A DNA stretch of 63,422 nt, counting the filler, from Nemertoderma westbladi (taxonomy: Eukaryota > Animalia > Xenacoelomorpha): assembly GCA_032718475.1 (NCBI GenBank). It is 4 parts of 4 records of this genome, joined end to end, with 100 filler letters (N's around TTAATTAATTAA, not from the genome) between each part and the next. Parts side by side here need not be neighbours in the genome. Positions count along the whole stretch, not along the records: positions 40,044 to 58,768 come from JAUCBJ010002591.1; 3 more parts are not named here. One strand, 5' to 3'. The position numbers were made by a program, and so were the translations under genes. Position 1 is the stretch's first letter. Every line of letters starts with the position of its first letter. A model generated the notes under the pieces. The model did not search any database. It saw nothing but the letters and a program-made list of their open reading frames with translations, and was not told the DNA's origin. Positions 24,821 through 63,422 of this stretch are shown here, piece by piece.

Positions 24821-25521
24821 CAGTATACGATGGTTCGACAACATTTGTGTCAACTGTTGATGGTGACACAGAACCATTTGAAGTGTTATGGGGCGTCCTC
24901 CAGGGAGACACACTTGCACCATTCTTGTTCATAATTGTTGTTGACTATGTTCTACGCATGTCCTTAGATCATCATAATGATGATGGGGTGATGATAACTC
25001 CACCTACTGGCTCCAAAAGTCGAGGAAATCCTGCCAAGTACCTAACTGATCTAGACTTTGCTGATGACTTAGGAGTACTCTCAGAATCACTAGAGGGAGC
25101 CCAACGGCTCCTCAGCTCATTATAACATGCTGCTTCTAGTGTTGGTGACCAAAATTTTGACAGTTAACTTTGAAAGTTATCAGCAAATCTCTGATCGGAT
25201 GAGCATAAGCTCAAAGGATGGTATGCTTGAGCATGTGGACGACTTCTGTTACCTGGGATCATGGATCCGGAAGTCAGGTGAGGTGAGGACCTTCGAATAC
25301 GTAAGGAAAAGGCATGGGCAGCCTTGAATAGGCCTTCCAGGATTTGGAAGGCACCGAGAATTAATCGGAAACTTAAGGTCCGATTATTTAGAGCAGCAGT
25401 AGTTCCAGTACTCCTCTATGGGAGTCCATGCTGGGCTCTAACTGCTGAGGACACCAAATCTCTGGATGGCACATTCACAAGAATGCTACGCCGGGTTCAT
25501 TGTGTCAAGTACAATGCACAC
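24821..25521 (+). mobile_element. RTE-like family A internal fragment, ending where the second foldback begins
   Basis: GVLQGDTLAP, DLDFADD; near-identical to copy 1; ends at VKYNAH|TGTAAGAC. Confidence 0.9.
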
Positions 25522-33852: not shown

Positions 33853-34001
33853 TATAAAGATAAACCTCAGAATATCATAAATATACAATGCAACAATAGT
33901 TTCAATTAATTACACGATACACATTCGGCCTAAGCTTTATACAGATTAATATCCCTGTATCCATGATGAGGTAAAATTGTGACACACCAACAATATAGAT
34001 G

Positions 34002-36782
34002 TTATTGTAAGTTTACACAACTGACTACTTCCCCCAAGTTAAATATATGTTTATGCTTTCGTGGAATACAGAATGAATGACTTTTATGTTTATACCCATG
34101 TAAGGGGTAGTAATCAAACAAGTCCAAATCCAGTTTACCTTCGAGCACAATACACTTATCATATCGAATAAAGTTAGTCAAAACATGCATATGCAACGCG
34201 TCATTTAGTTCATAATCATAGGCTTTACAAATAATATATATATGTGTAACAGTCTTAGGAAAAATATAGAGAATTTCCCAATACTCATTTGTTTTAATAT
34301 TGAACAAATATTGACCTAGTTTGTACTGAGTACCAAAACTAGTTATTGCCCTGCAAGATTTTAATGATGTACAGTTGTTGTTACCGATTACTAAATTTGA
34401 ATTGAGCATCTCTATAATGTCATTAGGAAGATGGTTTAGAGCAGACAACTTCTGCGATTGGATTGGCGACAATGATGGAATTGCATTCGAAGTGAGGGTC
34501 CCAGTTTCAATGAAATATGTGACCTGCATCTGGTGCCTCTCAGCCATAGTCTTTAAGGGGTTAATGAAGTTTGCTGTCTTTGTAACTAGTTTTTTGAAAT
34601 AAGAATGCTTTGCTTCATTCCGAAAAACGCTATACTGCGCTAAAGGTCCATACTTTAAAAACAAACTGGGATAATGGTCTAGGAAGTGATGCTTAGGTTT
34701 TAGAGAATAATCTGGAAAACAATGCTTGTAAAGAAGTTTATGTTCTCTAATAAGCCCGCTTAGCAATATGACGTCATTTTGTGTTACAGCCGGAGCAAAG
34801 ACTATTTCAATTATGTCCTTAAGTAGCAATAAAATTTCCCAGTATAGAAGTTCAGAATGGATGATGTCATTTTCGAAAATAATAGGAATAAATCTTAATA
34901 GAGTTCGTATTTCAGCTGCAGTGCCATGGAAGTTATTGTGATTTGGTTGCAGTGCTGAATATGGCTTATTAAATGCATCTTTACCCATGAAAGGAAAAGT
35001 ATTAATTGCTTGGTTGATGTCAGCTAATGTTAGCATAGAAACATCCGAAGCAGCAATGGCATTGAGACATAAAGAAAGTTCCAGGGAACCTAGTCCCTCC
35101 AGCAGATCATGCATTGGATCAGGTGGGAGCCCTTCTGTAACATGAAAGGATTGTAATTCATTCAACAAGCAACTATTTTTGATGCCAAATATTGATGCAC
35201 TGGAAAAGTCTAGTTGCAAGAGCTGCAATTCATATAAATCCTTAGTCCTATCTACAAAATACATTTCCTGGTTCAGATCTTGTATATCTGAACTCGTGCA
35301 AAGACAAAATCTACATGGATGATGGACATTGGGGGAAAAGGATTCAATAAACCCACCAATAGAATGTGCTCCCAGATTATCTGATGTCAAGTAACAAGCA
35401 ACAACCCTTACTAGTTTACCAGCAAACCTTCCACCAAAGTCGACACCATACTCAAGAACTTTAAGTTCCTCAACCATGGTTTTCAGTATCACATCAAATC
35501 CAAACATCTTCACATCGTCACAATGGGCAATAATAGCAAGATTAATCAGTCTTATAGAAGAACGCATATGCAATGGTAGATTCAAAAGAACCCAATAAAC
35601 AGCACTACATTTATTTTTCTTTCTAGTTGTACCAAGTGGATTTGTAGCACCGAAATCATCATAGTAAAGTCCTATCTTCAAGGTATATTTGTCTGTATCC
35701 TGATAAAATTTGTTACCTTTGTAATATGATCCAGATTCAAAAGACCACAAAACGTAATCATCTGAAGGAAACTCATTACCAAAACATAAGTACTTACAAA
35801 CTTGCTCATTATTTAAAAAAACTGTTAGCATATCTTTTATAGATATGTAATAGTAGAACTTTATCTTTTTACTGGCCAAAGTTGAATTTGACAACATTAT
35901 CTTTGATGGCTGGCAGTAACTTGGCAACTGTTGCAAGAATTGTTTCAACTTATATGAAGTTGATAAGGAGTTATCAATATCATGCAAACTAGATCCAGTA
36001 GGGGAGCAAAATTGTTGAAGAGGAAAATTTGACTGCATTTCATTGCACACATTCTTATCAAAACCATGAAGTTGCTCAAGGTATTCGAATGACAACATGT
36101 TAAGTTGGTTTATATCACCAATCATATTCATTGTTTGCGATTCTGGAACACCGTATATAACATTACATTTCAGGAGGAATAATGCCACACTTGTTTGTAA
36201 TGAAGAATAGCTACAGCTTCTCGACTCTATTAATGTGCTGGATTGGTTACAGAACTGGGACGAAGGAGTAATTTCAGCACATTCATGTTCAGTTGCATCG
36301 AAATTATCATTGCAATCATCAATGCAAACATTAGAATACAAGAACTTATCTTTAAAAAAGGATGATGGGGGTTTTGATTGGTCGAAATATTGAGTAGAAT
36401 GGGTTTTTGAAAGATGAGAACTAAATGTAGATTTACTAACAGATGAATAAGAACAACCTTTAAAGGGGCATTCCTTCAGATCGTCTGAATGTTGAGAATA
36501 AATGTGGCTACGTAAGCTCTGATATGAATCCATAGCGTCAAGACATATGCTGCAATGTAAAGCTAATGGCTGCATATGCGAAGAACTAATGTGAGCCTTC
36601 AATGAATTGAAGTTCTTGGTTTTAAAAAAGCAGTTGTCATAAACACAAGGAAGTGGGGTAACTGAAGCTGAGATCATATGGTCGATCTTATAATGAAGGA
36701 GCAGTTCATTTACGTTACAGTATTTACGGACTCCACACAAGTTGCACACAAACATGGCAGGAGTTATTTCAGAAACCTCCAT
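34002..36782 (-). CDS. CACTA/EnSpm DDE transposase with four N-terminal C2H2 zinc fingers, 926 aa
   Basis: LYYDDFGATNPLG, SDNLGAHSIGGF, HPCRFC, DPMHDLLEG, KPKHHFLDHY, RNEAKHSYFK; uninterrupted ORF. Confidence 0.9.
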   Translation of the reverse strand: MEVSEITPAMFVCNLCGVRKYCNVNELLLHYKIDHMISASVTPLPCVYDNCFFKTKNFNSLKAHISSSHMQPLALHCSICLDAMDSYQSLRSHIYSQHSDDLKECPFKGCSYSSVSKSTFSSHLSKTHSTQYFDQSKPPSSFFKDKFLYSNVCIDDCNDNFDATEHECAEITPSSQFCNQSSTLIESRSCSYSSLQTSVALFLLKCNVIYGVPESQTMNMIGDINQLNMLSFEYLEQLHGFDKNVCNEMQSNFPLQQFCSPTGSSLHDIDNSLSTSYKLKQFLQQLPSYCQPSKIMLSNSTLASKKIKFYYYISIKDMLTVFLNNEQVCKYLCFGNEFPSDDYVLWSFESGSYYKGNKFYQDTDKYTLKIGLYYDDFGATNPLGTTRKKNKCSAVYWVLLNLPLHMRSSIRLINLAIIAHCDDVKMFGFDVILKTMVEELKVLEYGVDFGGRFAGKLVRVVACYLTSDNLGAHSIGGFIESFSPNVHHPCRFCLCTSSDIQDLNQEMYFVDRTKDLYELQLLQLDFSSASIFGIKNSCLLNELQSFHVTEGLPPDPMHDLLEGLGSLELSLCLNAIAASDVSMLTLADINQAINTFPFMGKDAFNKPYSALQPNHNNFHGTAAEIRTLLRFIPIIFENDIIHSELLYWEILLLLKDIIEIVFAPAVTQNDVILLSGLIREHKLLYKHCFPDYSLKPKHHFLDHYPSLFLKYGPLAQYSVFRNEAKHSYFKKLVTKTANFINPLKTMAERHQMQVTYFIETGTLTSNAIPSLSPIQSQKLSALNHLPNDIIEMLNSNLVIGNNNCTSLKSCRAITSFGTQYKLGQYLFNIKTNEYWEILYIFPKTVTHIYIICKAYDYELNDALHMHVLTNFIRYDKCIVLEGKLDLDLFDYYPLHGYKHKSHSFCIPRKHKHIFNLGEVVSCVNLQ

Positions 36783-36923
36783 TACAGCATTACGCTATGC
36801 GCCTATCACATCACAGTTGCAATCAAATGTTTTTATCCTAGACATAACCTAACCTATACATATACAAATATGTATGTCTGTATGTACCAGTAGGCCTACT
36901 TAAGTTTTAATAAGAATTAAGAA

Positions 36924-39943: not shown

Positions 39944-40043
39944 NNNNNNNNNNNNNNNNNNNNNNNNNNNNNNNNNNNNNNNNNNNNTTAATTAATTAAN
40001 NNNNNNNNNNNNNNNNNNNNNNNNNNNNNNNNNNNNNNNNNNN
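39944..40043. other. Artificial contig linker
   Basis: N-run, TTAATTAATTAA, N-run. Confidence 0.97.
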
Positions 40044-40177: not shown

Positions 40178-41674
40178 GGTACCTGGATGTAACGCTCGTT
40201 AATTTCGTGGCTCGACTGACCCAAACTACTGTACCTGGATGTAACGCTTGTTAATTTCGTGGCTCGACAGACCCAAACTACTGTACCTGGATGTAACGCT
40301 CGTTAATTTCGTGGCTCGACAGACCCAAACTACTGTACCTGGATGTAACGCTCGTTAATTTCGTGGCTCGACAGACCCAAACTACTGTACCTGGATGTAA
40401 CGCTTGTTAATTTCGTGGCTCGACAGACCCAAACTACTGTACCTGGATGTAACGCTCGTTAATTTCGTGGCTCGACAGACCCAAACTACTGTACCTGGAT
40501 GTAACGCTCGTTAATTTCGTGGCTCGACAGACCCAAACTACTGTACCTGGATGTAACGCTCGTTAATTTCGTGGCTCGACAGACCCAAACTACTGTGCCT
40601 GGATGTAACGCTCGTTAATTTCGTGGCTCGACAGACCCAAACTACTGTACCTGGATGTAACGCTCGTTAATTTCGTGGCTCGACAGACCCAAACTACTGT
40701 ACCTGGATGTAACGCTCGTTAATTTCGTGGCTCGACAGACCTGGATGTAACGCTCGTTAATTTCGTGGCTCGACAGACCCGAACTACTGTACCTGGATGT
40801 AACGCTCGTTAATTTCGTGGCTCGACAGACCCAAACTACTGTACCTGGATGTAACGCTCGTTAATTTCGTGGCTCGACAGACCCAAACTACTGTACCTGG
40901 ATGTAACGCTCGTTAATTTCGTGGCTCGACAGACCCAAACTACTGTACCTGGATGTAACGCTCGTTAATTTCGTGGCTCGACAGACCCAAACTACTGTAC
41001 CTGGATGTAACGCTCGTTAATTTCGTGGCCCGACAGACCCAAACTACTGTACCTGGATGTAACGCTCGTTAATTTCGTGGCTCGACAGACCCAAACTACT
41101 GTACCTGGATGTAACGCTCGTTAATTTCGTGGCTCGACAGACCCAAACTACTGTACCTGGATGTAACGCTCGTTAATTTCGTGGCTCGACAGACCCGAAC
41201 TACTGTACCTGGATGTAACGCTCGTTAATTTCGTGGCTCGACAGACCCAAACTACTGTACCTGGATGTAACGCTCGTTAATTTCGTGGCTCGACAGACCC
41301 AAACTACTGTACCTGGATGTAACGCTCGTTAATTTCGTGGCTCGACAGACCCAAACTACTGTACCTGGATGTAACGCTCGTTAATTTCGTGGCTCGACAG
41401 ACCCAAACTACTGTACCTGGATGTAACGCTCGTTAATTTCGTGGCTCGACAGACCCAAACTACTGTACCTGGATGTAACGCTCGTTAATTTCGTGGCTCG
41501 ACAGACCCAAACTACTGTACCTGGATGTAACGCTCGTTAATTTCGTGGCTCGACAGACCCAAACTACTGTACCTGGATGTAACGCTCGTTAATTTCGTGG
41601 CCCGACAGACCCAAACTACTGTACCTGGATGTAACGCTCGTTAATTTCGTGGCTCGACAGACCCAAACTACTGT
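40178..41674. repeat. 52-bp highly homogeneous tandem array, ~29 copies
   Basis: GTACCTGGATGTAACGCTCGTTAATTTCGTGGCTCGACAGACCCAAACTACT; one shortened unit near 40740. Confidence 0.97.
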
Positions 41675-43010: not shown

Positions 43011-44812
43011 ACTACACCTTGGTGGAAGCCGATCATTATCAATTAAGAAAATGAATATATTGTTATAAAGCACCAAAAACTAATACCGTATTTACTCGAA
43101 TATGAGCCCACCCTCGAATTAACGCCACCGTTACCATCAAATTAACAACTTAAACGCCTTCCCCGAATAAACGCCCCGGCGTTTAATAATATTACAATGT
43201 GCGGTCGTTAACATTGTTGAGAGTTAACTGATTGTTAAGATTGAAGGTAACTGAGTAGTAGATTGCCTGAAGTATTGGATGCTCCGTCGTTCTGTCCAAT
43301 TTTTACTAATGTGATTAATTTTAATAATAATTGTGTTCTGTGCTGCCCTAAATGCCCCCTGATTGATTAGTTCCGGTTGGCATTGCGTGTAGAATTACGA
43401 TGCTTCCCAATACGTAAGGGGACTGCTGGTTCTCCGATATAATTCTCAACATTATGGCTGCAAGAAGATTATTTTAATTCATAAACTACTTTGCTAGTGG
43501 CGCAAGCCTTGGCTCAGTGGTTGCTATAGTGTACCATGGGGTACTCCCAAGGTATGGTCATGGGGTTCCCTTACGGATATACCGAACGTTTTAAGGTTGG
43601 GACCTAGTCTTGGGAGTTAAAGTGTCGTTAAGTGTTACTTTAAGGCACTCAAGGTTGTAACCGATAGTTTACACAAATAGACGGATACATACATACAAAC
43701 AGATACAACCTCAATTACAGACAATAACCACCTATAGCCACAGAACATAATTAAGTTTTTCATAAATATCAAATCCGCCACATTTGTACATAATAAAGTC
43801 TGCGCCCATTTGAAGAATACAAGGATTTCACTTTTCGGTCGACTTTTTATTGGAATTTTATATATGAAGATTTTTTATTTTTTTTAATTTATCTTTATTA
43901 AGTGTTTTATAGCGCTTATTTCTGTCTTATAACCTGTACATATACTAATTCGTTTATTGTTTTGGTTAGATTCAGCCCTTCTGTAACCTGTGTTTTTGGT
44001 GAAAACCTGTATTCTTCACATGGGGGTAACTGAACTGTAAAGTGAAATATAACGGCAGAAAGTCTGGTATTCTTCACATGGGCCAAAGTCTGTCGTTTGA
44101 ATCAATTCATACAATAGGATAGAAAGTACAAATATAAATAGTTGGATACCCTGAGGAATATTGCCGTCAATTAAAAAAACAACATTTAAAAAACAATAAA
44201 AGGGAGGAATAATTGGCAATAATTATTTCCGCGAACTTTGTATTTCGGGATGTTTCAATGTTTACAACCGATAAATATTTAATGTTAATCTCATCTGGAA
44301 CTAAATTACAATTATACACAATTATTATTTAGCTTGATTTACTAAAACTTGTATAAAACTAGTGAATTCTAACATATTGTGCAGCAGTAAGAGCAAATAC
44401 GGGAAAAATTATATTAAAAAAAAACTAAAATGTGGCGTATGAGAAGTTAATTAAACAATTAGTAACCCCAATGATTTAATAATTAATTACATATTATTAA
44501 TAACCAATTTTCTAACTTTTAAAACAAATAATAATAACTTACAAACTATTGGCTTCTTATATAATAAAATTATAAACAATATTATAAATAAATAAATAGG
44601 ATTCCCTATGGCTCTTCTAAGCATTTCATCATCTCTAAATATAGACCTATTAGACGGTTATTAACTAATAAATTGCAACATAATTAGATGTTCGTTTGAA
44701 TATAAGTTAATACAAAACTAATCTAAAAGGAATAAAACCAACAAGCAGCTACAATCATTTAAAAAATTAACCAGTCGCTAACAAAATAATGATGACACAA
44801 TAACAGGCTATG

Positions 44813-45149
44813 TAAGGGAGGCGTTCCGTTCATATAGAATGTGTCACGTAGAGTTTCGGTTAAAAATGGTTAAAAATGGTAACTTAATTAATTATAATAA
44901 CAATCCCTTTAAATTATGTTTATTATTATTATTATTATTAATTAATTAATTAACAACCTGTGCCAGGTAAACGGGGTAAAAGAGGTTTCTAGAACACTGT
45001 ATATATAAGTTGAAACATAGGTACCGGGTTCGAGCCCCACTCGGGTCTATTTGTATTTTTCGCTATGGAGAGCATTTACAATATTTCCTAAATTATTATC
45101 AATATATATAATATCTCCCCCAACTAGTGACATGCGAAACGCCCCCTTA
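44813..45149. mobile_element. Possible PIF/Harbinger-like MITE downstream of the FLOT2 stop codon
   Basis: TAAGGGAGGCGTTCCG is an imperfect inverse of CGAAACGCCCCCTTA. Confidence 0.4.
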
Positions 45150-45258
45150 GTAATAAATTAATTAATATAAATTATTTAACTTCTAATATTAATAATATTA
45201 GTAAAATTATATAATAATCGACTAACACCATATCGATTACGTCATGTCTATATATAAC

Positions 45259-45686
45259 TCAGACTTTACTACTCATGACCTTAGCGATGTACCCGGACAC
45301 ATCGACCCCGGTGAGCGCGCTCACGGCCGGGGGCAGTTCCCCCAGCAACCGGTTCACCTCCCCCCCGACCCCCGAGCCGCCGCCTCCCCCCAGTATAACG
45401 ATCTCGTCTACCCGCCGTAGCGGCCCGGCCACTTCGGCCGCTATCTGGGGCATCGACTCCAGCACCATGGCCGCCTTGGCCGCCGCCCCGTAGCGCATGT
45501 AGGCCGCGGCCTTGGCGCGCATTCTCTCGGCCTCCGCCTTCCCTACCACCTCTATGGCCGACGCCTCGGCCCCGCCCTCCAGCACCGTTCGCCGCGCGTC
45601 CGCCCTCGCCAGCTCCACTGTCTGGGTCCGTCTACCGGCCGCCAGCACCTCCACCTTGTAACTCTCCGCTTCCGCTGGAAGTTTAA
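45259..45686 (-). CDS. FLOT2: Flotillin-2 (reggie-1), terminal coding exon (partial gene)
   Basis: Acceptor TTTTTTATTGTTTTTGTAG|TT, then KLPAEAESYK...GKAEAERMRAKAAAYMRYG...PQIAAEVAGPLRRVDEIVIL...EVNRLLGELPPAVSALTGVDVS, which matches the FLOT2 C-terminus. Confidence 0.93.
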
Positions 45687-45760
45687 CTACAAAAACAATA
45701 AAAAACTCGTATAAAAAAATATGTGATTTCTATGAAAGTAACTAAGTAAAAAATTACTAT

Positions 45761-48700
45761 TTACTATTTATCTCCAGTTCCCACTCTCCCCTTACCCACC
45801 AGTAGCTGTAAGTTCTTTCTCTTTACTATTTATCTCCTGTTCCCACTCTCCCCTTACCCACCAGTAGTTGTAAGTTCTTTCTCTTTACTATTTATCTCCT
45901 GTTCCCACTCCCCCCTTACCCACCAGTAGCTGTAAGTTCTTTCTCTTTACGAGTTATCTCCTGTTCCCACTCTCCCCTTACCCACCAGTAGCTGTAAGTT
46001 CTTTCTCTTTACTATATCTCCTGTTCCCACTCTCCCCTTACCCACCAGTAGCTGTAAGTTCTTTCTCTTTACTATATCTCCTGTTCCCACTCCCCCCTTA
46101 CCCACCAGTAGCTGTAAGTTCTTTCTCTTTACTATTTATCTCCTGTTCCCACTCCCCCCTTACCCACCAGTAGCTGTAAGTTCTTTCTCTTTACTATTTA
46201 TCTCCTGTTCCCACTCCCCCCTTACCCACCAGTAGCTGTAAGTTCTTTCTCTTTACTATATCTCCTGTTCCCACTCTCCCCTTACCCACCAGTAGCTGTA
46301 AGTTCTTTCTCTTTACTATATCTCCTGTTCCCACTCTCCCCTTACCCACCAGTAGCTGTAAGTTCTTTCTCTTTACTATATCTCCTGTTCCCACTCCCCC
46401 CTTACCCACCAGTAGCTGTAAGTTCTTTCTCTTTACTATATCTCCTGTTCCCACTCTCCCCTTACCCACCAGTAGCTGTAAGTTCTTTCTCTTTACTATA
46501 TCTCCTGTTCCCACTCCCCCCTTACCCACCAGTAGCTGTAAGTTCTTTCTCTTTACTATATCTCCTGTTCCCACTCTCCCCTTACCCACCAGTAGCTGTA
46601 AGTTCTTTCTCTTTACTATATCTCCTGTTCCCACTCCCCCCTTACCCACCAGTAGCTGTAAGTTCTTTCTCTTTACTATCTATCTCCTGTTCCCACTCCC
46701 CCCTTACCCACCAGTAGCTGTAAGTTCTTTCTCTTTACTATTTATCTCCTGTTCCCAATCTCCCCTTACCCACCAGTAGCTGTAAGTTCTTTCTCTTTAC
46801 TATTTATCTCCTGTTCCCACTCCCCCCTTACCCACCAGTAGCTGTAAGTTCTTTCTCTTTACTATTTATCTCCTGTTCCCTCCCCCCCCTTACCCACCAG
46901 TAGCTGTAAGTTATTTCTCTTTACTATTTATCTCCTGTTCCCAATCTCCCCTTACCCACCAGTAGCTGTAAGTTCTTTCTCTTTACTATTTATCTCCTGT
47001 TCCCACTCCCCCCTTACCCACCAGTAGCTGTAAGTTCTTTCTCTTTACTATTTATCTCCTGTTCCCAATCTCCCCTTACCCACCAGTTTAGCTGTAAGTT
47101 CTTTCTCTTTACTATTTATCTCCTGTTCCCACTCCCCCCTTACCCACCAGTAGCTGTAAGTTATTTCTCTTTACTATTTATCTCCTGTTCCCTTCCCCCC
47201 TTACCCACCAGTAGCTGTAAGTTCTTTCTCTTTACTATTTATCTCCTGTTCCCACTCCCCCCTTACCCTCCAGTAGCTGTAAGTTCTTTCTCTTTACGAG
47301 TTATCTCCTGTTCCCACTCTCCCTTACCCACCAGTAGCTGTAAGTTCTTTCTCTTTACTATTTATCTCCTGTTCCCACTCTCCCTTACCCACCAGTAGCT
47401 GTAAGTTCTTTCTCTTTACTATTTATCTCCTGTTCCCACTCTCCCTTACCCACCAGTAGCTGTAAGTTCTTCCTCTTTACGAGTTATCTCCTGTTCCCAC
47501 TCTCCCCTTACCCACCAGTAGCTGTAAGTTCTTTCTCTTTACTATTTATCTCCTGTTCCCACTCTCCCCTTACCCACCAGTAGCTGTAAGTTCTTTCTCT
47601 TTACTATATCTCCTGTTCCCACTCCCCCCTTACCCACCAGTAGCTGTAAGTTCTTTCTCTTTACGAGTTATCTCCTGTTCCCACTCTCCCTTACCCACCA
47701 GTAGCTGTAAGTTCTTTCTCTTTACTATTTATCTCCTGTTCCCACTCTCCCTTACCCACCAGTAGCTGTAAGTTCTTTCTCTTTACTATTTATCTCCTGT
47801 TCCCACTCTCCCTTACCCACCAGTAGCTGTAAGTTCTTCCTCTTTACGAGTTATCTCCTGTTCCCACTCTCCCCTTACCCACCAGTAGCTGTAAGTTCTT
47901 TCTCTTTACTATTTATCTCCTGTTCCCACTCTCCCCTTACCCACCAGTAGCTGTAAGTTCTTTCTCTTTACTATATCTCCTGTTCCCACTCCCCCCTTAC
48001 CCACCAGTAGCTGTAAGTTCTTTCTCTTTACGAGTTATCTCCTGTTCCCACTCTCCCCTTACCCACCAGTAGCTGTAAGTTCTTTCTCTTTACTATTTAC
48101 CTCCTGTTCCCACTCCCCCTTACCCACCAGTAGCTGTAAGTTCTTTCTCTTTACTATTTATCTCCTGTTCCCACTCTCCCCTTACCCACCAGTAGCTGTA
48201 AGTTCTTTCTCTTTACGAGTTATCTCCTGTTCCCACTCTCCCCTTACCCACCAGTAGCTGTAAGTTCTTTCTCTTTACTATATCTCCTGTTCCCACTCCC
48301 CCCTTACCCACCAGTAGCTGTAAGTTCTTTCTCTTTACGAGTTATCTCCTGTTCCCACTCTCCCCTTACCCACCAGTAGCTGTAAGTTCTTTCTCTTTAC
48401 TATATCTCCTGTTCCCACTCCCCCCTTACCCACCAGTAGCTGTAAGTTCTTTCTCTTTACTATTTATCTCCTGTTCCCAATCTCCCCTTACCCACCAGTA
48501 GCTGTAAGTTCTTTCTCTTTACTATTTATCTCCTGTTCCCACTCCCCCCTTACCCACCAGTAGCTGTAAGTTCTTTCTCTTTACTATTTATCTCCTGTTC
48601 CCAATCTCCCCTTACCCACCAGTAGCTATAAGTTCTTCCTCTTTACGAGTTATCTCCTGTTCCCACTCTCCCCTTACCCACCATTAGCTGTAAGTTCTTT

Positions 48701-51700
48701 CTCTTTACTATTTATCTCCTGTTCCCACTCCCCCCTTACCCACCAGTAGCTGTAAGTTCTTTCTCTTTACTATTTATCTCCTGTTCCCACTCCCCCCTTA
48801 CCCACCAGTAGCTGTAAGTTCTTTCTCTTTACTATTTATCTCCTGTTCCCACTCTCCCCTTACCCACCAGTAGCTGTAAGTTCTTTCTCTTTACTATATC
48901 TCCTGTTCCCACTCTCCCCTTACCCACCAGTAGCTGTAAGTTCTTTCTCTTTACTATTTATCTCCTGTTCCCACTCCCCCCTTACCCACCAGTAGCTGTA
49001 AGTTCTTTCTCTTTACTATTTATCTCCTGTTCCCACTCCCCCCTTACCCTCCAGTAGCTGTAAGTTCTTTCTCTTTACTATTTATCTCCTGTTCCCACTC
49101 CCCCCTTACCCACCAGTAGCTGTAAGTTCTTTCTCTTTACTATTTATCTCCTGTTCCCACTCTCCCCTTACCCACCAGTAGCTGTAAGTTCTTTCTCTTT
49201 ACTATTTATCTCCTGTTCCCACTCCCCCCTTACCCCCCAGTAGCTGTAAGTTCTTTCTCTTTACTATTTATCTCCTGTTCCCACTCCCCCCTTACCCTCC
49301 AGTAGCTGTAAGTTCTTTCTCTTTACTATTTATCTCCTGTTCCCACTCCCCCCTTACCCACCAGTAGCTGTAAGTTCTTTCTCTTTACTATTTATCTCCT
49401 GTTCCCACTCTCCCCTTACCCACCAGTAGCTGTAAGTTCTTTCTCTTTACTATTTATCTCCTGTTCCCACTCCCCCCTTACCCACCAGTAGCTGTAAGTT
49501 CTTTCTCTTTACTATTTATCTCCTGTTCCCACTCCCCCCTTACCCACCAGTAGCTGTAAGTTCTTTCTCTTTACTATTTATCTCCTGTTCCCACTCCCCC
49601 CTTACCCACCAGTAGCTGTAAGTTCTTTCTCTTTACTATTTATCTCCTGTTCCCACTCTCCCCTTACCCACCAGTAGCTGTAAGTTCTTTCTCTTTACTA
49701 TTTATCTCCTGTTCCCACTCCCCCCTTACCCACCAGTAGCTGTAAGTTCTTTCTCTTTACTATTTATCTCCTGTTCCCAATCTCCCCTTACCCACCAGTA
49801 GCTGTAAGTTCTTTCTCTTTACTATTTATCTCCTGTTCCCACTCCCCCCTTACCCACCAGTAGCTGTAAGTTCTTTCTCTTTACTATTTATCTCCTGTTC
49901 CCACTCTCCCCTTACCCACCAGTAGCTGTAAGTTCTTTCTCTTTACTATTTATCTCCTGTTCCCTTCCCCCTTACCCACCAGTAGCTGTAAGTTCTTTCT
50001 CTTTACTATTTATCTCCTGTTCCCACTCCCCCCTTACCCACCAGTAGCTGTAAGTTCTTTCTCTTTACTATTTATCTCCTGTTCCCTCTCCCCCTTACCC
50101 ACCAGTAGCTGTAAGTTCTTTCTCTTTACTATTTATCTCCTGTTCCCACTCTCCCCTTACCCACCAGTAGCTGTAAGTTCTTTCTCTTTACTATATCTCC
50201 TGTTCCCACTCCCCCCTTACCCACCAGTAGCTGTAAGTTCTTTCTCTTTACTATTTATCTCCTGTTCCCACTCCCCCCTTACCCACCAGTAGCTGTAAGT
50301 TCTTTCTCTTTACTATTTATCTCCTGTTCCCACTCCCCCCTTACCCACCAGTAGCTGTAAGTTCTTTCTCTTTACTATTTATCTCCTGTTCCCCTCCCCC
50401 CTTACCCACCAGTAGCTGTAAGTTCTTTCTCTTTACTATTTATCTCCTGTTCCCACTCCCCCCTTACCCACCAGTAGCTGTAAGTTCTTTCTCTTTACTA
50501 TTTATCTCCTGTTCCCACTCTCCCCTTACCCACCAGTAGCTGTAAGTTCTTTCTCTTTACTATTTATCTCCTGTTCCCACTCCCCCCTTACCCACCAGTA
50601 GCTGTAAGTTCTTTCTCTTTACTATTTATCTCCTGTTCCCTTCCCCCTTACCCACCAGTAGCTGTAAGTTCTTTCTCTTTACTATTTATCTCCTGTTCCC
50701 ACTCCCCCCTTACCCACCAGTAGCTGTAAGTTCTTTCTCTTTACTATTTATCTCCTGTTCCCACTCCCCCCTTACCCACCAGTAGCTGTAAGTTCTTTCT
50801 CTTTACTATTTATCTCCTGTTCCCTTCCCCCTTACCCACCAGTAGCTGTAAGTTCTTTCTCTTTACTATTTATCTCCTGTTCCCACTCCCCCCTTACCCA
50901 CCAGTAGCTGTAAGTTCTTTCTCTTTACTATTTATCTCCTGTTCCCACTCCCCCCTTACCCACCAGTAGCTGTAAGTTCTTTCTCTTTACTATTTATCTC
51001 CTGTTCCCTTCCCCCTTACCCACCAGTAGCTGTAAGTTCTTTCTCTTTACTATTTATCTCCTGTTCCCACTCTCCCCTTACCCACCAGTAGCTGTAAGTT
51101 CTTTCTCTTTACTATTTATCTCCTGTTCCCTTCCCCCTTACCCACCAGTAGCTGTAAGTTCTTTCTCTTTACTATTTATCTCCTGTTCCCACTCCCCCCT
51201 TACCCACCAGTAGCTGTAAGTTCTTTCTCTTTACTATTTATCTCCTGTTCCCACTCTCCCCTTACCCACCAGTAGCTGTAAGTTCTTTCTCTTTACTATT
51301 TATCTCCTGTTCCCACTCTCCCCTTACCCACCAGTAGCTGTAAGTTCTTTCTCTTTACTATTTATCTCCTGTTCCCACTCTCCCCCTTACCCACCAGTAG
51401 CTGTAAGTTCTTTCTCTTTACTATTTATCTCCTGTTCCCTTCCCCCTTACCCACCAGTAGCTGTAAGTTCTTTCTCTTTACTATTTATCTCCTGTTCCCT
51501 TCCCCCTTACCCACCAGTAGCTGTAAGTTCTTTCTCTTTACTATTTATCTCCTGTTCCCTCCCCCCTTACCCACCAGTAGCTGTAAGTTCTTTCTCTTTA
51601 CTATATCTCCTGTTCCCACTCCCCCCTTACCCACCAGTAGCTGTAAGTTCTTTCTCTTTACTATTTATCTCCTGTTCCCAATCTCCCCTTACCCACCAGT

Positions 51701-54700
51701 AGCTGTAAGTTCTTTCTCTTTACTATTTATCTCCTGTTCCCACTCCCCCCTTACCCACCAGTAGCTGTAAGTTCTTTCTCTTTACTATTTATCTCCTGTT
51801 CCCAATCTCCCCTTACCCACCAGTAGCTATAAGTTCTTCCTCTTTACGAGTTATCTCCTGTTCCCACTCTCCCCTTACCCACCATTAGCTGTAAGTTCTT
51901 TCTCTTTACTATTTATCTCCTGTTCCCACTCCCCCCTTACCCACCAGTAGCTGTAAGTTCTTTCTCTTTACTATTTATCTCCTGTTCCCACTCCCCCCTT
52001 ACCCACCAGTAGCTGTAAGTTCTTTCTCTTTACTATTTATCTCCTGTTCCCACTCTCCCCTTACCCACCAGTAGCTGTAAGTTCTTTCTCTTTACTATAT
52101 CTCCTGTTCCCACTCTCCCCTTACCCACCAGTAGCTGTAAGTTCTTTCTCTTTACTATTTATCTCCTGTTCCCACTCTCCCCTTACCCACCAGTAGCTGT
52201 AAGTTCTTTCTCTTTACTATTTATCTCCTGTTCCCACTCTCCCCCTTACCCACCAGTAGCTGTAAGTTCTTTCTCTTTACTATTTATCTCCTGTTCCCTT
52301 CCCCCTTACCCACCAGTAGCTGTAAGTTCTTTCTCTTTACTATTTATCTCCTGTTCCCTTCCCCCTTACCCACCAGTAGCTGTAAGTTCTTTCTCTTTAC
52401 TATTTATCTCCTGTTCCCTCCCCCCTTACCCACCAGTAGCTGTAAGTTCTTTCTCTTTACTATATCTCCTGTTCCCACTCCCCCCTTACCCACCAGTAGC
52501 TGTAAGTTCTTTCTCTTTACTATTTATCTCCTGTTCCCAATCTCCCCTTACCCACCAGTAGCTGTAAGTTCTTTCTCTTTACTATTTATCTCCTGTTCCC
52601 ACTCCCCCCTTACCCACCAGTAGCTGTAAGTTCTTTCTCTTTACTATTTATCTCCTGTTCCCAATCTCCCCTTACCCACCAGTAGCTATAAGTTCTTCCT
52701 CTTTACGAGTTATCTCCTGTTCCCACTCTCCCCTTACCCACCATTAGCTGTAAGTTCTTTCTCTTTACTATTTATCTCCTGTTCCCACTCCCCCCTTACC
52801 CACCAGTAGCTGTAAGTTCTTTCTCTTTACTATTTATCTCCTGTTCCCACTCCCCCCTTACCCACCAGTAGCTGTAAGTTCTTTCTCTTTACTATTTATC
52901 TCCTGTTCCCACTCTCCCCTTACCCACCAGTAGCTGTAAGTTCTTTCTCTTTACTATATCTCCTGTTCCCACTCTCCCCTTACCCACCAGTAGCTGTAAG
53001 TTCTTTCTCTTTACTATTTATCTCCTGTTCCCACTCCCCCCTTACCCACCAGTAGCTGTAAGTTCTTTCTCTTTACTATTTATCTCCTGTTCCCACTCCC
53101 CCCTTACCCTCCAGTAGCTGTAAGTTCTTTCTCTTTACTATTTATCTCCTGTTCCCACTCCCCCCTTACCCACCAGTAGCTGTAAGTTCTTTCTCTTTAC
53201 TATTTATCTCCTGTTCCCACTCTCCCCTTACCCACCAGTAGCTGTAAGTTCTTTCTCTTTACTATTTATCTCCTGTTCCCACTCCCCCCTTACCCCCCAG
53301 TAGCTGTAAGTTCTTTCTCTTTACTATTTATCTCCTGTTCCCACTCCCCCCTTACCCTCCAGTAGCTGTAAGTTCTTTCTCTTTACTATTTATCTCCTGT
53401 TCCCACTCCCCCCTTACCCACCAGTAGCTGTAAGTTCTTTCTCTTTACTATTTATCTCCTGTTCCCACTCTCCCCTTACCCACCAGTAGCTGTAAGTTCT
53501 TTCTCTTTACTATTTATCTCCTGTTCCCACTCCCCCCTTACCCACCAGTAGCTGTAAGTTCTTTCTCTTTACTATTTATCTCCTGTTCCCACTCCCCCCT
53601 TACCCACCAGTAGCTGTAAGTTCTTTCTCTTTACTATTTATCTCCTGTTCCCACTCCCCCCTTACCCACCAGTAGCTGTAAGTTCTTTCTCTTTACTATT
53701 TATCTCCTGTTCCCACTCTCCCCTTACCCACCAGTAGCTGTAAGTTCTTTCTCTTTACTATTTATCTCCTGTTCCCACTCCCCCCTTACCCACCAGTAGC
53801 TGTAAGTTCTTTCTCTTTACTATTTATCTCCTGTTCCCAATCTCCCCTTACCCACCAGTAGCTGTAAGTTCTTTCTCTTTACTATTTATCTCCTGTTCCC
53901 ACTCCCCCCTTACCCACCAGTAGCTGTAAGTTCTTTCTCTTTACTATTTATCTCCTGTTCCCACTCTCCCCTTACCCACCAGTAGCTGTAAGTTCTTTCT
54001 CTTTACTATTTATCTCCTGTTCCCTCTCCCCCTTACCCACCAGTAGCTGTAAGTTCTTTCTCTTTACTATTTATCTCCTGTTCCCACTCCCCCCTTACCC
54101 ACCAGTAGCTGTAAGTTCTTTCTCTTTACTATTTATCTCCTGTTCCCACTCCCCCTTACCCACCAGTAGCTGTAAGTTCTTTCTCTTTACTATTTATCTC
54201 CTGTTCCCACTCTCCCCTTACCCACCAGTAGCTGTAAGTTCTTTCTCTTTACTATTTATCTCCTGTTCCCACTCCCCCCTTACCCACCAGTAGCTGTAAG
54301 TTCTTTCTCTTTACTATTTATCTCCTGTTCCCACTCCCCCCTTACCCACCAGTAGCTGTAAGTTCTTTCTCTTTACTATTTATCTCCTGTTCCCACTCCC
54401 CCCTTACCCACCAGTAGCTGTAAGTTCTTTCTCTTTACTATTTATCTCCTGTTCCCACTCCCCCCTTACCCACCAGTAGCTGTAAGTTCTTTCTCTTTAC
54501 TATTTATCTCCTGTTCCCACTCCCCCCTTACCCACCAGTAGCTGTAAGTTCTTTCTCTTTACTATTTATCTCCTGTTCCCACTCCCCCCTTACCCACCAG
54601 TAGCTGTAAGTTCTTTCTCTTTACTATTTATCTCCTGTTCCCACTCTCCCCTTACCCACCAGTAGCTGTAAGTTCTTTCTCTTTACTATTTATCTCCTGT

Positions 54701-57700
54701 TCCCACTCCCCCCTTACCCACCAGTAGCTGTAAGTTCTTTCTCTTTACTATTTATCTCCTGTTCCCACTCCCCCTTACCCACCAGTAGCTGTAAGTTCTT
54801 TCTCTTTACTATTTATCTCCTGTTCCCACTCCCCCCTTACCCACCAGTAGCTGTAAGTTCTTTCTCTTTACTATTTATCTCCTGTTCCCACTCCCCCCTT
54901 ACCCACCAGTAGCTGTAAGTTCTTTCTCTTTACTATTTATCTCCTGTTCCCACTCTCCCCTTACCCACCAGTAGCTGTAAGTTCTTTCTCTTTACTATTT
55001 ATCTCCTGTTCCCACTCCCCCCTTACCCACCAGTAGCTGTAAGTTCTTTCTCTTTACTATTTATCTCCTGTTCCCACTCCCCCCTTACCCACCAGTAGCT
55101 GTAAGTTCTTTCTCTTTACTATTTATCTCCTGTTCCCACTCTCCCCTTACCCACCAGTAGCTGTAAGTTCTTTCTCTTTACTATTTATCTCCTGTTCCCA
55201 CTCCCCCCTTACCCACCAGTAGCTGTAAGTTCTTTCTCTTTACTATTTATCTCCTGTTCCCACTCCCCCCTTACCCACCAGTAGCTGTAAGTTCTTTCTC
55301 TTTACTATTTATCTCCTGTTCCCACTCCCCCCTTACCCACCAGTAGCTGTAAGTTCTTTCTCTTTACTATTTATCTCCTGTTCCCACTCCCCCCTTACCC
55401 ACCAGTAGCTGTAAGTTCTTTCTCTTTACTATTTATCTCCTGTTCCCACTCTCCCCTTACCCACCAGTAGCTGTAAGTTCTTTCTCTTTACTATTTATCT
55501 CCTGTTCCCACTCCCCCCTTACCCACCAGTAGCTGTAAGTTCTTTCTCTTTACTATTTATCTCCTGTTCCCACTCCCCCCTTACCCACCAGTAGCTGTAA
55601 GTTCTTTCTCTTTACTATTTATCTCCTGTTCCCACTCCCCCCTTACCCACCAGTAGCTGTAAGTTCTTTCTCTTTACTATTTATCTCCTGTTCCCACTCT
55701 CCCCTTACCCACCAGTAGCTGTAAGTTCTTTCTCTTTACTATTTATCTCCTGTTCCCACTCCCCCCTTACCCACCAGTAGCTGTAAGTTCTTTCTCTTTA
55801 CTATTTATCTCCTGTTCCCACTCCCCCCTTACCCACCAGTAGCTGTAAGTTCTTTCTCTTTACTATTTATCTCCTGTTCCCACTCCCCCCTTACCCACCA
55901 GTAGCTGTAAGTTCTTTCTCTTTACTATTTATCTCCTGTTCCCACTCTCCCCTTACCCACCAGTAGCTGTAAGTTCTTTCTCTTTACTATTTATCTCCTG
56001 TTCCCACTCCCCCCTTACCCACCAGTAGCTGTAAGTTCTTTCTCTTTACTATTTATCTCCTGTTCCCACTCCCCCCTTACCCACCAGTAGCTGTAAGTTC
56101 TTTCTCTTTACTATTTATCTCCTGTTCCCACTCCCCCCTTACCCACCAGTAGCTGTAAGTTCTTTCTCTTTACTATTTATCTCCTGTTCCCACTCTCCCC
56201 TTACCCACCAGTAGCTGTAAGTTCTTTCTCTTTACTATTTATCTCCTGTTCCCACTCCCCCCTTACCCACCAGTAGCTGTAAGTTCTTTCTCTTTACTAT
56301 TTATCTCCTGTTCCCACTCCCCCCTTACCCACCAGTAGCTGTAAGTTCTTTCTCTTTACTATTTATCTCCTGTTCCCACTCCCCCCTTACCCACCAGTAG
56401 CTGTAAGTTCTTTCTCTTTACTATTTATCTCCTGTTCCCACTCTCCCCTTACCCACCAGTAGCTGTAAGTTCTTTCTCTTTACTATTTATCTCCTGTTCC
56501 CACTCCCCCCTTACCCACCAGTAGCTGTAAGTTCTTTCTCTTTACTATTTATCTCCTGTTCCCACTCCCCCCTTACCCACCAGTAGCTGTAAGTTCTTTC
56601 TCTTTACTATTTATCTCCTGTTCCCACTCCCCCCTTACCCACCAGTAGCTGTAAGTTCTTTCTCTTTACTATTTATCTCCTGTTCCCACTCCCCCCTTAC
56701 CCACCAGTAGCTGTAAGTTCTTTCTCTTTACTATTTATCTCCTGTTCCCACTCCCCCCTTACCCACCAGTAGCTGTAAGTTCTTTCTCTTTACTATTTAT
56801 CTCCTGTTCCCACTCCCCCCTTACCCACCAGTAGCTGTAAGTTCTTTCTCTTTACTATTTATCTCCTGTTCCCACTCCCCCCTTACCCACCAGTAGCTGT
56901 AAGTTCTTTCTCTTTACTATTTATCTCCTGTTCCCACTCCCCCCTTACCCACCAGTAGCTGTAAGTTCTTTCTCTTTACTATTTATCTCCTGTTCCCACT
57001 CCCCCCTTACCCACCAGTAGCTGTAAGTTCTTTCTCTTTACTATTTATCTCCTGTTCCCACTCCCCCCTTACCCACCAGTAGCTGTAAGTTCTTTCTCTT
57101 TACTATTTATCTCCTGTTCCCACTCCCCCCTTACCCACCAGTAGCTGTAAGTTCTTTCTCTTTACTATTTATCTCCTGTTCCCACTCCCCCCTTACCCAC
57201 CAGTAGCTGTAAGTTCTTTCTCTTTACTATTTATCTCCTGTTCCCACTCCCCCCTTACCCACCAGTAGCTGTAAGTTCTTTCTCTTTACTATTTATCTCC
57301 TGTTCCCACTCCCCCCTTACCCACCAGTAGCTGTAAGTTCTTTCTCTTTACTATTTATCTCCTGTTCCCACTCCCCCCTTACCCACCAGTAGCTGTAAGT
57401 TCTTTCTCTTTACTATTTATCTCCTGTTCCCACTCCCCCCTTACCCACCAGTAGCTGTAAGTTCTTTCTCTTTACTATTTATCTCCTGTTCCCACTCCCC
57501 CCTTACCCACCAGTAGCTGTAAGTTCTTTCTCTTTACTATTTATCTCCTGTTCCCACTCCCCCCTTACCCACCAGTAGCTGTAAGTTCTTTCTCTTTACT
57601 ATTTATCTCCTGTTCCCACTCCCCCCTTACCCACCAGTAGCTGTAAGTTCTTTCTCTTTACTATTTATCTCCTGTTCCCACTCCCCCCTTACCCACCAGT

Positions 57701-58768
57701 AGCTGTAAGTTCTTTCTCTTTACTATTTATCTCCTGTTCCCACTCCCCCCTTACCCACCAGTAGCTGTAAGTTCTTTCTCTTTACTATTTATCTCCTGTT
57801 CCCACTCCCCCCTTACCCACCAGTAGCTGTAAGTTCTTTCTCTTTACTATTTATCTCCTGTTCCCACTCCCCCTTACCCACCAGTAGCTGTAAGTTCTTT
57901 CTCTTTACTATTTATCTCCTGTTCCCACTCCCCCCTTACCCACCAGTAGCTGTAAGTTCTTTCTCTTTACTATTTATCTCCTGTTCCCACTCCCCCCTTA
58001 CCCACCAGTAGCTGTAAGTTCTTTCTCTTTACTATTTATCTCCTGTTCCCACTCCCCCCTTACCCACCAGTAGCTGTAAGTTCTTTCTCTTTACTATTTA
58101 TCTCCTGTTCCCACTCCCCCCTTACCCACCAGTAGCTGTAAGTTCTTTCTCTTTACTATTTATCTCCTGTTCCCACTCCCCCCTTACCCACCAGTAGCTG
58201 TAAGTTCTTTCTCTTTACTATTTATCTCCTGTTCCCACTCCCCCCTTACCCACCAGTAGCTGTAAGTTCTTTCTCTTTACTATTTATCTCCTGTTCCCAC
58301 TCCCCCTTACCCACCAGTAGCTGTAAGTTCTTTCTCTTTACTATTTATCTCCTGTTCCCACTCTCCCCCTTACCCACCAGTAGCTGTAAGTTCTTTCTCT
58401 TTACTATTTATCTCCTGTTCCCACTCCCCCCTTACCCACCAGTAGCTGTAAGTTCTTTCTCTTTACTATTTATCTCCTGTTCCCACTCCCCCCTTACCCA
58501 CCAGTAGCTGTAAGTTCTTTCTCTTTACTATTTATCTCCTGTTCCCTCTCCCCCTTACCCACCAGTAGCTGTAAGTTCTTTCTCTTTACTATTTATCTCC
58601 TGTTCCACTCTCCCCTTACCCACCAGTAGCTGTAAGTTCTTTCTCTTTACTATTTATCTCCTGTTCCCACTCCCCCCTTACCCACCAGTAGCTGTAAGTT
58701 CTTTCTCTTTACTATTTATCTCCTGTTCCCACTCTCCCCTTACCCACCAGTAGCTGTAAGTTCTTTCT
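45761..58768 (-). repeat. Intronic 62-bp tandem array (~210 copies, open at the gap) made of the FLOT2 exon end plus splice donor
   Basis: Sense unit GAACAGGAGATAA(ATA/CTC)GTAAAGAGAAAGAACTTACAGCTACTG|GTGGGTAAGGGG(G/A)GAGTGG, encoding EQEI(NS/TR)KEKELTAT plus G and the donor. Confidence 0.95.
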
Positions 58769-58868
58769 NNNNNNNNNNNNNNNNNNNNNNNNNNNNNNNN
58801 NNNNNNNNNNNNTTAATTAATTAANNNNNNNNNNNNNNNNNNNNNNNNNNNNNNNNNNNNNNNNNNNN
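58769..58868. other. Artificial contig linker
   Basis: N-run, TTAATTAATTAA, N-run. Confidence 0.97.
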
Positions 58869-62562: not shown

Positions 62563-63197
62563 GCTCCCTCTAGTGATTCTGAGAGTACTCCTAAGTCATC
62601 AGCAAAGTCTAGATCAGTTAGGTACTTGGCAGGATTTCCACGACTTCTGGAGCCAGTAGGTGGAGTTATCATCACCCCATCATCATTATGAATTATGATG
62701 ATCTAAGGACATGCGTAGAACATAGTCAACCACAATTATGAACAAGAATGGTGCAAGTGTGTCTCCCTGGAGGACGCCCCATAAAACTTCAAATGGTTCT
62801 GTGTCACCGTCAACAGTAGACACAAATGTTGTCGAACCATCGTATACTGATCTGATTGCTGCAATAATTTCATCAGGAATCCCATATAATGAAAGTATGC
62901 TGAACATACGTGAGCGGGAGACTGAATCAAAGGCCTTGAAGAAGTCAACAAAGATAACAGCCAGATGCATGTCTTTCTTTTTTGATAACTCTTCAATTAT
63001 CCTTCTAAGTGCCAAAATGGGTTCCATGGTCCCACGACCTTTACGGAACCCATTCTGATTTCCACGGAGCAGTCTCTCAATGGGATCCCTGATGCGAGTT
63101 AATAGAAATCTATTGTATAGCTTTGCAGCAATCGAGATCAATGAGATTCCCCGAAAAGAACCATAGAGTGTTAGGTTGCCCTTCTTGGGAACTGGAA
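62563..63197 (-). mobile_element. RTE-like family A internal RT fragment
   Basis: PVPKKGNL, FRGISL, NQNGFRKGR, FVDFFKAFDSV, GVLQGDTLAP; a small insertion near 62690 gives a stop. Confidence 0.9.
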
Positions 63198-63422
63198 ACT
63201 TGTAATTTTGGTGCAGCAAAATAACCACCCCAGTAGTTTTTTTCGAAATTTTTTTTCTTCGTTCGGATTCGGATTTGTGCGATCTACGTACAAACAACAA
63301 ATCAAACATTTTCGTTAAAATTTGTAGATTTTAGATGGAGGGGTCAATAGGACCCCCCCCCCCCCCCCCCCCGCTATTTGTACAACATTTTTTTAGCCCG
63401 GTACTAATAGGGTTAACTATTG

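What the first reader, a model, noticed from the sequence alone, without database searches (positions are those of the whole stretch)
45687..58768. A >13-kb FLOT2 intron built from ~210 copies of its own exon-intron junction
Seen: on the sense (-) strand each 62-bp unit is 43 nt reading GAA CAG GAG ATA AAT/ACT AGT/CGT AAA GAG AAA GAA CTT ACA GCT ACT G, followed by GTGGGTAAGGGGGGAGTGG. Splicing G|GT to the acceptor at 45688/45687 gives EQEITRKEKELTAT-V-KLPAEAESYK. Known: this is the conserved FLOT2 segment (human, from memory, QEILRTDKELIATVRRPAEAE). Inference: the exon end plus donor was tandemly amplified, so the spliceosome meets ~210 near-identical donors in identical exonic context. Read-through gives ACT GGT GGG TAA, an immediate stop, so only the 5'-most donor (beyond the gap) gives full-length protein. 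This implies strict first-donor selection, stepwise re-splicing, or a copy-number-dependent NMD effect.
Basis: partly seen in the sequence, partly recalled or inferred. Interest (0 to 1): 0.92.

Follow-up and report, generated by a model that had tools for sequence, protein, structure and literature searches.

The report
Giant splice-donor repeat in flotillin-2 intron
The last 40 bases of a flotillin-2 exon and its splice signal are repeated at least 211 times (13 kb) in the next intron of an animal gene, yet the one spliced contig seen, likely from RNA, joins the true exon straight to the next exon, so this is likely a tolerated, very large case of a repeat type known from lancelet and human genes.

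Summary
A 62-bp array of 211 copies runs from 45760 to an assembly gap, upstream of the last FLOT2 exon. One public run that behaves as RNA holds a 2,050-nt contig joining unique upstream coding sequence, 40 nt identical to the unit, and the last exon at a G|GT...AG junction. So the unit is 40 nt exon plus 22 nt intron, the gene appears expressed, and the product seen uses the first donor. Every downstream donor reads into Gly-Gly-stop (211 of 211). Only 11 copies keep the near-invariant Arg codon; 178 carry Ser. Re-splicing is unlikely (one AGGT in 13 kb). This is the known class of junction-spanning minisatellites: human F7, CBS, IFI6, LMNB2, PDGF (5-25 copies) and lancelet 'mirages'. It is about ten times larger than those. 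The scan has already noted the same pattern on other pieces of this genome and in other genomes. Likely a neutral expansion tolerated by first-donor choice; its marked copies make leak to downstream donors easy to measure.

The parts
45760..58768 (-). 62-bp minisatellite, at least 211 copies; unit = last 40 nt of a FLOT2 exon + first 22 nt of the intron (donor CTG|GTGGGTAA followed by G runs); open at the gap end
   Evidence: TRF; unit census; 40-nt match to the spliced contig
45259..45686 (-). Coding part of the last FLOT2 exon, with stop codon; starts in phase 1 (G|TT, Val); 69% GC
   Evidence: ORF list, homologs, PDB, Pfam Flot, GC
45687..45759 (-). Unique 73-nt intron tail (19% GC) with T-rich tract and the acceptor AG at 45688-45687
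   Evidence: sequence; present in DNA contigs of X1 and X2; skipped in the X3 contig
45760..45777 (-). Terminal partial copy of the exon part (18 nt, 15 of 18 identical to the real exon end, AAT-AGT form)
   Evidence: tail printed compared with the 40-mer
45924..45963 (-). One of 6 copies whose 40-nt exon part equals the transcript exactly (Arg-type); its donor starts at 45923
   Evidence: record 17 (0 other letters)
58747..58747 (-). Most upstream donor visible in the window; 13,061 nt from here to the acceptor. The true donor lies further upstream, outside the sequenced window
52480..53979 (-). 25-unit block, letter-identical over 1,500 nt to the block 4,060 nt away (48420-49919); a 14-unit block is also doubled (starts 52987 and 52128)
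   Evidence: 0 of 200 shuffles of unit order gave any repeated run with 5 or more variants
58769..58868 (.). Assembly gap (N44, 12-nt spacer, N44); the rest of the array and the upstream FLOT2 exons are not in the window
44804..45258 (-). Inferred 3' UTR covered by the X3 contig (883 nt lie 3' of the junction), if colinear

Best explanation
This is a junction-spanning minisatellite in the last intron of flotillin-2: the final 40 nt of an exon plus 22 nt of intron are repeated at least 211 times, likely by ordinary repeat slippage and unequal exchange, and the gene likely survives because the spliceosome takes the first donor. Shown: the unit's make-up, the stop after every donor, the spliced contig through the true exon, and block duplications inside the array. 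Inferred: (a) the true exon sits at the head of this same array, beyond the gap; (b) the first donor wins because it closes the defined exon and is transcribed first, as shown by mutagenesis for human F7; (c) rare use of later donors gives a protein cut before its last 142 residues and an mRNA likely removed by nonsense-mediated decay; (d) the G-rich sense strand may promote expansion through R-loops or G-quadruplexes; (e) the array has no selected function.
For: X3 record 17 (2,050 nt, depth 47.6) matches 45924-45963 exactly, continues 3' into the last exon and 5' into unique sequence that keeps the flotillin frame; it is the only X3 record laid, with depth 0 on the intronic part, where three DNA runs have 44-4,700. 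Its two differences in the exon (45667, 45676) are the same two as in X2's genomic contig, which keeps the intron, so it comes from an intron-bearing allele. X1 record 5 (385 nt) joins the same unique sequence to the unit in DNA, and none of the 8 X1 records laid leaves the 40-mer by another route. 178 of 211 copies change an Arg found in 110 of 111 homologs to Ser and 19 have a frameshift, so the copies are free of coding constraint. 24% of the window outside this array is also tandem repeat. X1 depth on the best-shared piece is 2,383 against 8.6-9.0 on unique flanks, about 270-fold. F7 mutagenesis supports first-donor choice among identical donors (PMC1557585, abstract, introduction passages and discussion read). 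G4Hunter >=1.5 in 202 of 209 periods against under 0.4% of windows elsewhere.
Against: No read or contig spans true exon, array and last exon; the link rests on short-read graph pieces and the gap hides it. The census of array entries and exits is incomplete, and X2 shows one more junction at 45981 into sequence not in the window. X3 is labelled 'DNA?' by the tool; RNA is my inference. Contigs drop rare forms, so low-level use of later donors is not excluded, and this is one run. Depth ratios differ widely between runs (about 270, 32-80 and 3), two of them from one sample, and X1 may be the assembly's own source. Only 1 canonical four-tract G4 motif was found (210 three-tract), so the G4 step is weak.
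Confidence: 0.78

Rival explanations
1. The array is a dosage dial: each extra donor diverts some transcripts into stop-bearing, NMD-degraded forms, so copy number sets FLOT2 level.
For: All 211 downstream donors give a stop, 54 nt or more before the junction that would form. In CBS and IFI6 the first two pseudo-donors are used, as cited in PMC1557585. 201 of 211 donors are intact.
Against: No X3 record carries the intronic 22 nt. Intact donors are expected from homogenisation alone. No expression or length data were available; NMD would hide the products, so the contig cannot exclude it.
Confidence: 0.08
2. The intron is removed stepwise, by recursive splicing or re-splicing through the repeats.
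For: Each unit has AG-ending motifs (CAGG in 210, TTACAG in 207) and the intron is over 13 kb.
Against: The donor is CTG|GT, not AG|GT; one AGGT in the array. The sense strand is 76% purine, with no pyrimidine tract before those AGs. The contig has no 6-nt or 37-nt insert that these acceptors would leave.
Confidence: 0.04
3. The array is real but much shorter than assembled, or partly mis-joined: the doubled blocks are assembly duplications, or the array is split by an insertion.
For: Two blocks are letter-identical over 1,500 and 850 nt. X2 and X4 give far lower depth ratios than X1; X2 has an extra junction. The contig right of the gap has no array and no FLOT2.
Against: X1 ratio of about 270 fits 211 or more. 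27 variants in an ordered pattern, with several variant classes recovered as separate high-depth pieces in three DNA runs. The array has no GATC site (0 against 83 in the preceding 45.8 kb), which could lower depth in a restriction-based library; library types are not on record.
Confidence: 0.07
4. The window holds a dead duplicate: array plus last exon are a detached copy, and the expressed FLOT2 lies elsewhere with a plain intron.
For: Upstream exons are absent from the window; no genome was held to search.
Against: The last exon is open and 60-66% identical to most listed homologs; its flanks have single-copy depth; the transcript's variants match an intron-bearing allele; no X1 record leaves the 40-mer except into the repeat.
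Confidence: 0.03

Closest known systems
Human F7 intron 7 37-bp VNTR (Borensztajn et al. 2006, PMC1557585; abstract, introduction passages and discussion read)
   Same: First monomer spans the exon-intron boundary; identical donors follow; only the most upstream is used. The intronic hexamer is the same (gugggu).
   Different: 5-9 copies and 4 exonic nt in F7; at least 211 copies and 40 exonic nt here. F7 was tested by mutagenesis; here one contig. Some F7 pseudo-donors are in frame; here all give a stop.
Human CBS intron 13 (15-20 copies), IFI6/6-16 intron 2 (25 pseudo-sites), LMNB2 (10-15 x 100 bp), PDGF intron 4 (16-18 x 81 bp), as cited in PMC1557585 (originals not read)
   Same: Donor reiterated in tandem into the intron; LMNB2 and PDGF use only the authentic donor.
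   Different: CBS and IFI6 also use the two nearest pseudo-donors; none was seen here. Copy numbers are about ten-fold lower.
Lancelet 'mirage' minisatellites: Adh3, troponin C, globins BflGb6 and BflGb9, PGBD5 (PMC3087553 and PMC3902484, matching passages read; supplements not opened)
   Same: Invertebrate, tandem copies of an exon-intron boundary, normal splicing reported, recurrent within a genome, signs of concerted turnover.
   Different: 2-7 copies at the globin and PGBD5 loci described in the passages read; units 10-160 bp; both donors and acceptors. No homology of sequence: independent origin.
Variable internal tandem repeats at exon-intron boundaries of human duplicated genes (De Grassi and Ciccarelli 2009, PMC2812944, passages read)
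   Same: Tandem repeats overlapping exon-intron boundaries.
   Different: Those often create new introns or alternative forms; here the repeat copies an existing donor and leaves the protein unchanged.

Membership tests
Junction-spanning minisatellite (F7-type / 'mirage') | Head-to-tail minisatellite | tested here: met
   62 bp x 211, 97% matches
Junction-spanning minisatellite (F7-type / 'mirage') | Unit contains the host gene's own exon-intron boundary | tested here: met
   40 nt identical to the spliced contig, followed by GT; junction to the acceptor at 45688-45687
Junction-spanning minisatellite (F7-type / 'mirage') | First monomer is the authentic boundary, contiguous with the array | tested here: inconclusive
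   X1 record 5 joins unique exon sequence to the unit and no other exit is listed among 8 records, but the gap hides the join and no record spans it
Junction-spanning minisatellite (F7-type / 'mirage') | Mature mRNA is spliced normally at the authentic site | tested here: met
   One unbroken contig in one run that behaves as RNA; no record on the intronic part. Rare forms would be missed.
Junction-spanning minisatellite (F7-type / 'mirage') | Copy number varies between alleles | tested here: inconclusive
   Depth ratios about 270, 32-80 and 3 in three runs, but two runs of one sample differ ten-fold
Junction-spanning minisatellite (F7-type / 'mirage') | Downstream donors are functional when the first is lost (shown for F7) | not testable with these tools
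   Needs minigenes or mutants; 201 of 211 have the intact donor motif
Recursively spliced intron | AG|GT ratchet points with a pyrimidine tract (feature recalled) | tested here: not met
   1 AGGT in 13 kb; donor is CTG|GT; sense strand 76% purine
Intron gain by tandem duplication of exonic proto-splice sites | Both splice sites derive from duplicated exon sequence | tested here: not met
   22 nt after the donor and the 73-nt tail with the acceptor are absent from the spliced contig and unlike the exon; the age of the intron position was not tested
Flotillin-2 | Flotillin domain, closer to FLOT2 than FLOT1 | tested here: met
   Pfam PF15975 36.6 bits, cut-off 27; PDB FLOT2 127.9 bits against FLOT1 82.3; last exon only, no tree built

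The most novel reading that the evidence does not exclude
This animal has a genome-wide, donor-seeded amplification process: G-rich tracts just behind 5' splice sites form R-loops or G-quadruplexes during transcription and drive exon-end-plus-donor units to hundreds or thousands of copies. The arrays then act back on their genes, as length-dependent sinks into nonsense-mediated decay and as templates that can convert the coding exon (here 178 Ser-type copies facing a near-invariant Arg). FLOT2 would be the cleanest reporter, because a two-base mark 27-29 nt from the junction tells which kind of donor each read used.
Probability: 0.12. Interest if true: 0.68.

Novelty: new member of a known kind. 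Interest (0 to 1): 0.3.

Why it matters
How a spliceosome picks one donor among identical neighbours was studied with 5-9 copies in F7. Here at least 201 intact donors span 13 kb, the last of them only 113 nt from the acceptor, and the product seen still uses the farthest one. That argues against proximity to the acceptor and for exon definition or first-come choice, in an invertebrate-like animal. Because 200 of 211 visible copies differ from the true exon close to the junction, ordinary short reads can count leak to downstream donors. If the array is neutral, it shows how large introns can grow from a gene's own junctions. It does not reveal a new mechanism on present evidence.

Tried and rejected
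No whole genome is held, so the upstream exons and a genome-wide count could not be searched. tblastn with 10 homologs at E<=100 and 36 full-length homologs at E<=0.05 found no upstream FLOT2 exon in the window. The run search listed no holder on record as RNA. Laying four runs on 44400-45845 showed no joint and did not lay the X3 contig; this blank is not used as evidence. Copy-number polymorphism from depth: rejected as unreliable. RNA structure hiding the donors: four units fold no better than shuffles (z -0.73, 46 of 200 shuffles as good). The alternative donor 4 nt downstream (TGG|GTAAGG in 204 of 211): would shift the frame, pairs with 6 against 7 positions of a recalled U1 consensus, and is not the junction in the contig. 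The 62-bp unit as a dispersed element: no copy elsewhere in the window. Literature: nine searches. None listed a junction-spanning array of 100 or more copies or a genome-wide survey in an invertebrate, but the library lacks most subscription papers, I saw most hits as listings only, and I opened no supplements. A 2023 human VNTR-splicing study that I recall was not found. I did not identify the organism.

Full report
Observation. Tandem Repeats Finder reports one array at 45760-58768, period 62, 211.0 copies, 97% matches. On the minus strand a script finds 211 donor anchors from 58747 down to 45799 and 27 variants among the 210 complete units between them; 159 are 62 nt long. The array stops at a 100-base gap (58769-58868). 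Below it lie an 18-nt partial copy, a 73-nt AT-rich tail ending in AG at 45688-45687, and an open frame to a stop at 45259. That frame is the flotillin C-terminus: 454 homologs, Pfam Flot above cut-off, and flotillin-2 ahead of flotillin-1 among solved structures (127.9 against 82.3 bits). The unit's peptide matches the homologs just upstream of this exon at every conserved position.

What the unit is. Six public runs were listed, none on record as RNA. I laid four (X1-X4) on a single unit, 45912-45992. X3 gave one record only: 2,050 nt, depth 47.6, matching 45924-45963 with no difference. Its loose end on one side is the start of the last exon; on the other it is unique sequence that reads QRRKLIQIEE in frame (my translation), like the homologs' context. 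X3 has depth 0 on the intronic part, where X1, X2 and X4 have 44 to 4,700, so X3 behaves as RNA although the tool guesses 'DNA?'. The two differences in its exon end (45667 C>T, 45676 T>C) are also in X2's genomic contig, which runs on into the intron; the spliced form therefore comes from an intron-bearing allele, not a retrocopy or paralog. 883 nt lie 3' and 1,127 nt 5' of the 40-mer, which fits a full-length message. I cannot explain that; X3's word share of 0.44 does fit the expected 0.46 if it holds that exon with X2-like differences.

Where the true exon is. It is not in the window and no genome is held. In X1 DNA, record 5 (385 nt, depth 3.1) joins the same unique sequence to the unit by 30 nt. 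Of the 8 X1 records laid, it is the only one with a loose end, so no listed path leaves the 40-mer except into the repeat. The exit into the intron tail is seen in X1 and X2. This fits one array between the true exon and the last exon, but it is not a spanning read, the census can miss junctions of the other unit type, and X2 shows an extra junction at 45981 into sequence absent from the window. The 4.5 kb right of the gap holds neither array nor FLOT2, so the gap hides much, or the scaffold join is wrong.

Is the size real? X1's best-shared piece has depth 2,383 against 8.6-9.0 on unique flanks, about 270-fold, in line with 211 plus a hidden part. X2 gives 844 (summed) against 10.5-26, and X4 48 against 14, though X2 and X4 are one sample. 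The tool warns that depth is no copy number, and X1 may be the assembly's source. The order of variants is structured: a 25-unit block recurs 4,060 nt away and a 14-unit block recurs directly, letter-identical; 0 of 200 shuffles gave any repeated run with five or more variants. Variety rises towards the acceptor end (2-7 variants per 30 units in the first 90 units, 14-16 in the last 60). This is what unequal exchange leaves; identical blocks could also be assembly duplications.

What the copies would do. Read-through gives Gly-Gly-stop at 211 of 211 donors; 201 have CTG|GTGGGTAA, 7 have lost GT. Splicing from copy 2, 3 or 4 would leave the stop 54, 116 or 178 nt before the junction and drop the last 142 residues. 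Only 11 copies keep the exon's ACT-CGT, all between 45923 and 52679; 178 have AAT-AGT, 19 a 2-nt deletion, 3 other; no single-change intermediate occurs. The change replaces an Arg present in 110 of 111 homologs (111 of 120 had the anchor motif) with Ser. The copies are thus pseudo-exon ends, and they are marked. In a k-mer graph, use of such copies would branch the X3 contig; it is unbroken, so such use is below what contig cleaning keeps. Rare use is not excluded.

Mechanism. Shown: structure, stops, one normally spliced product. Inferred: growth by slippage and unequal exchange in a repeat-rich region (24% of the rest of the window is tandem repeat); tolerance through first-donor choice; clearance of leak by nonsense-mediated decay. 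An array that starts in an exon end and crosses the donor is one of the few exon-overlapping arrays that leave the protein intact, so survival bias alone could make this class common. The sense strand is 76% purine and 36% G; G4Hunter reaches 1.5 in 202 of 209 periods against under 0.4% of windows elsewhere, but only one canonical four-tract motif exists. A role for R-loops or G-quadruplexes in expansion rests on recalled knowledge of G-rich minisatellites and is untested. Recursive splicing lacks its signal (one AGGT). Folding does not hide the donors (z -0.73).

Comparison. PMC1557585 (abstract, introduction passages, discussion) describes the F7 intron 7 VNTR, 5-9 identical donors with the same gugggu hexamer, of which only the most upstream is used, and cites IFI6 (25 pseudo-sites), CBS (15-20), LMNB2 (10-15) and PDGF (16-18). 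PMC3087553 and PMC3902484 (passages) describe lancelet 'mirages' that do not disturb splicing. PMC2812944 (passages) covers boundary repeats in human duplicated genes. The FLOT2 array works like these and meets the features I could test; it differs in scale, about ten-fold over the largest count in the passages I read. Nine searches listed nothing of this size, within the limits given under Tried and rejected.

Earlier scan notes. Listings (a few lines each, unchecked by me) report the same pattern in about a dozen other genes of this genome, up to about 2,100 copies, and 42 notes with matching words in at least 16 genomes. They led me to the 'mirage' papers, which I then read in part. One note (GALNS) reports splicing from an internal variant copy; I saw none here. 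No note names FLOT2 or lies near this place.

Verdict. Real, correctly read, and a very large new member of a known kind. Interest 0.3: unsurprising in kind, useful as a marked natural test of donor choice.

Noticed in passing
run X2, junction at window 45981 (table 7): One X2 record leaves the repeat just at the GTAAG motif into 29 letters of sequence not found in the window: an insertion in the array, a second locus, or a different array end in that sample.
   Followed up: partly
window 6284-7456 (-): Single open frame of 390 aa with an OSTM1 domain (Pfam PF09777, E 3e-37); apparently without introns.
   Followed up: partly
window 40179-41674: 52-bp array, about 29 copies, 98-99% identical; the minus strand has CAG|GTACAG in each unit and a short open stretch before it, but no gene was linked to it and it has no copy elsewhere in the window.
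   Followed up: partly
window 31871-32290: 67-bp array, 6 copies, each with a GTAAGT donor-like motif on the plus strand; no exon identified.
   Followed up: no
window 34002-36794 and 32950-33909 (-): Two long frames (930 and 319 aa) with no Pfam hit at E<=0.01; the first has zinc-finger-like motifs and looks by eye like a CACTA/EnSpm-type transposase (recalled, untested).
   Followed up: partly
window 2605-3819, 15069-15590, 24760-25638, 62686-63330: Near-identical broken copies of one LINE-type reverse transcriptase (RVT_1 hits for two of them).
   Followed up: partly
window 17953-22382, 25782-26518, 27788-28261: A 147/167-bp satellite with internal 20-bp subunits occurs in both orientations, flipping near 18.8-19.1 kb.
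   Followed up: no
window 45007-45076: Short tRNA-like dispersed repeat in the inferred FLOT2 3' UTR, depth 24,000-43,000 in three DNA runs; tRNA likeness judged by eye.
   Followed up: no
window about 43466-44489: X3 holds a second contig (1,040 nt, depth 44.7, close to the 47.6 of the FLOT2 contig) ending here; possibly a distal part of a long FLOT2 3' UTR.
   Followed up: no
window 17833-17932, 39944-40043, 58769-58868: All three gaps have the same form, 44 N, a 12-nt spacer and 44 N, so their true sizes are unknown.
   Followed up: no
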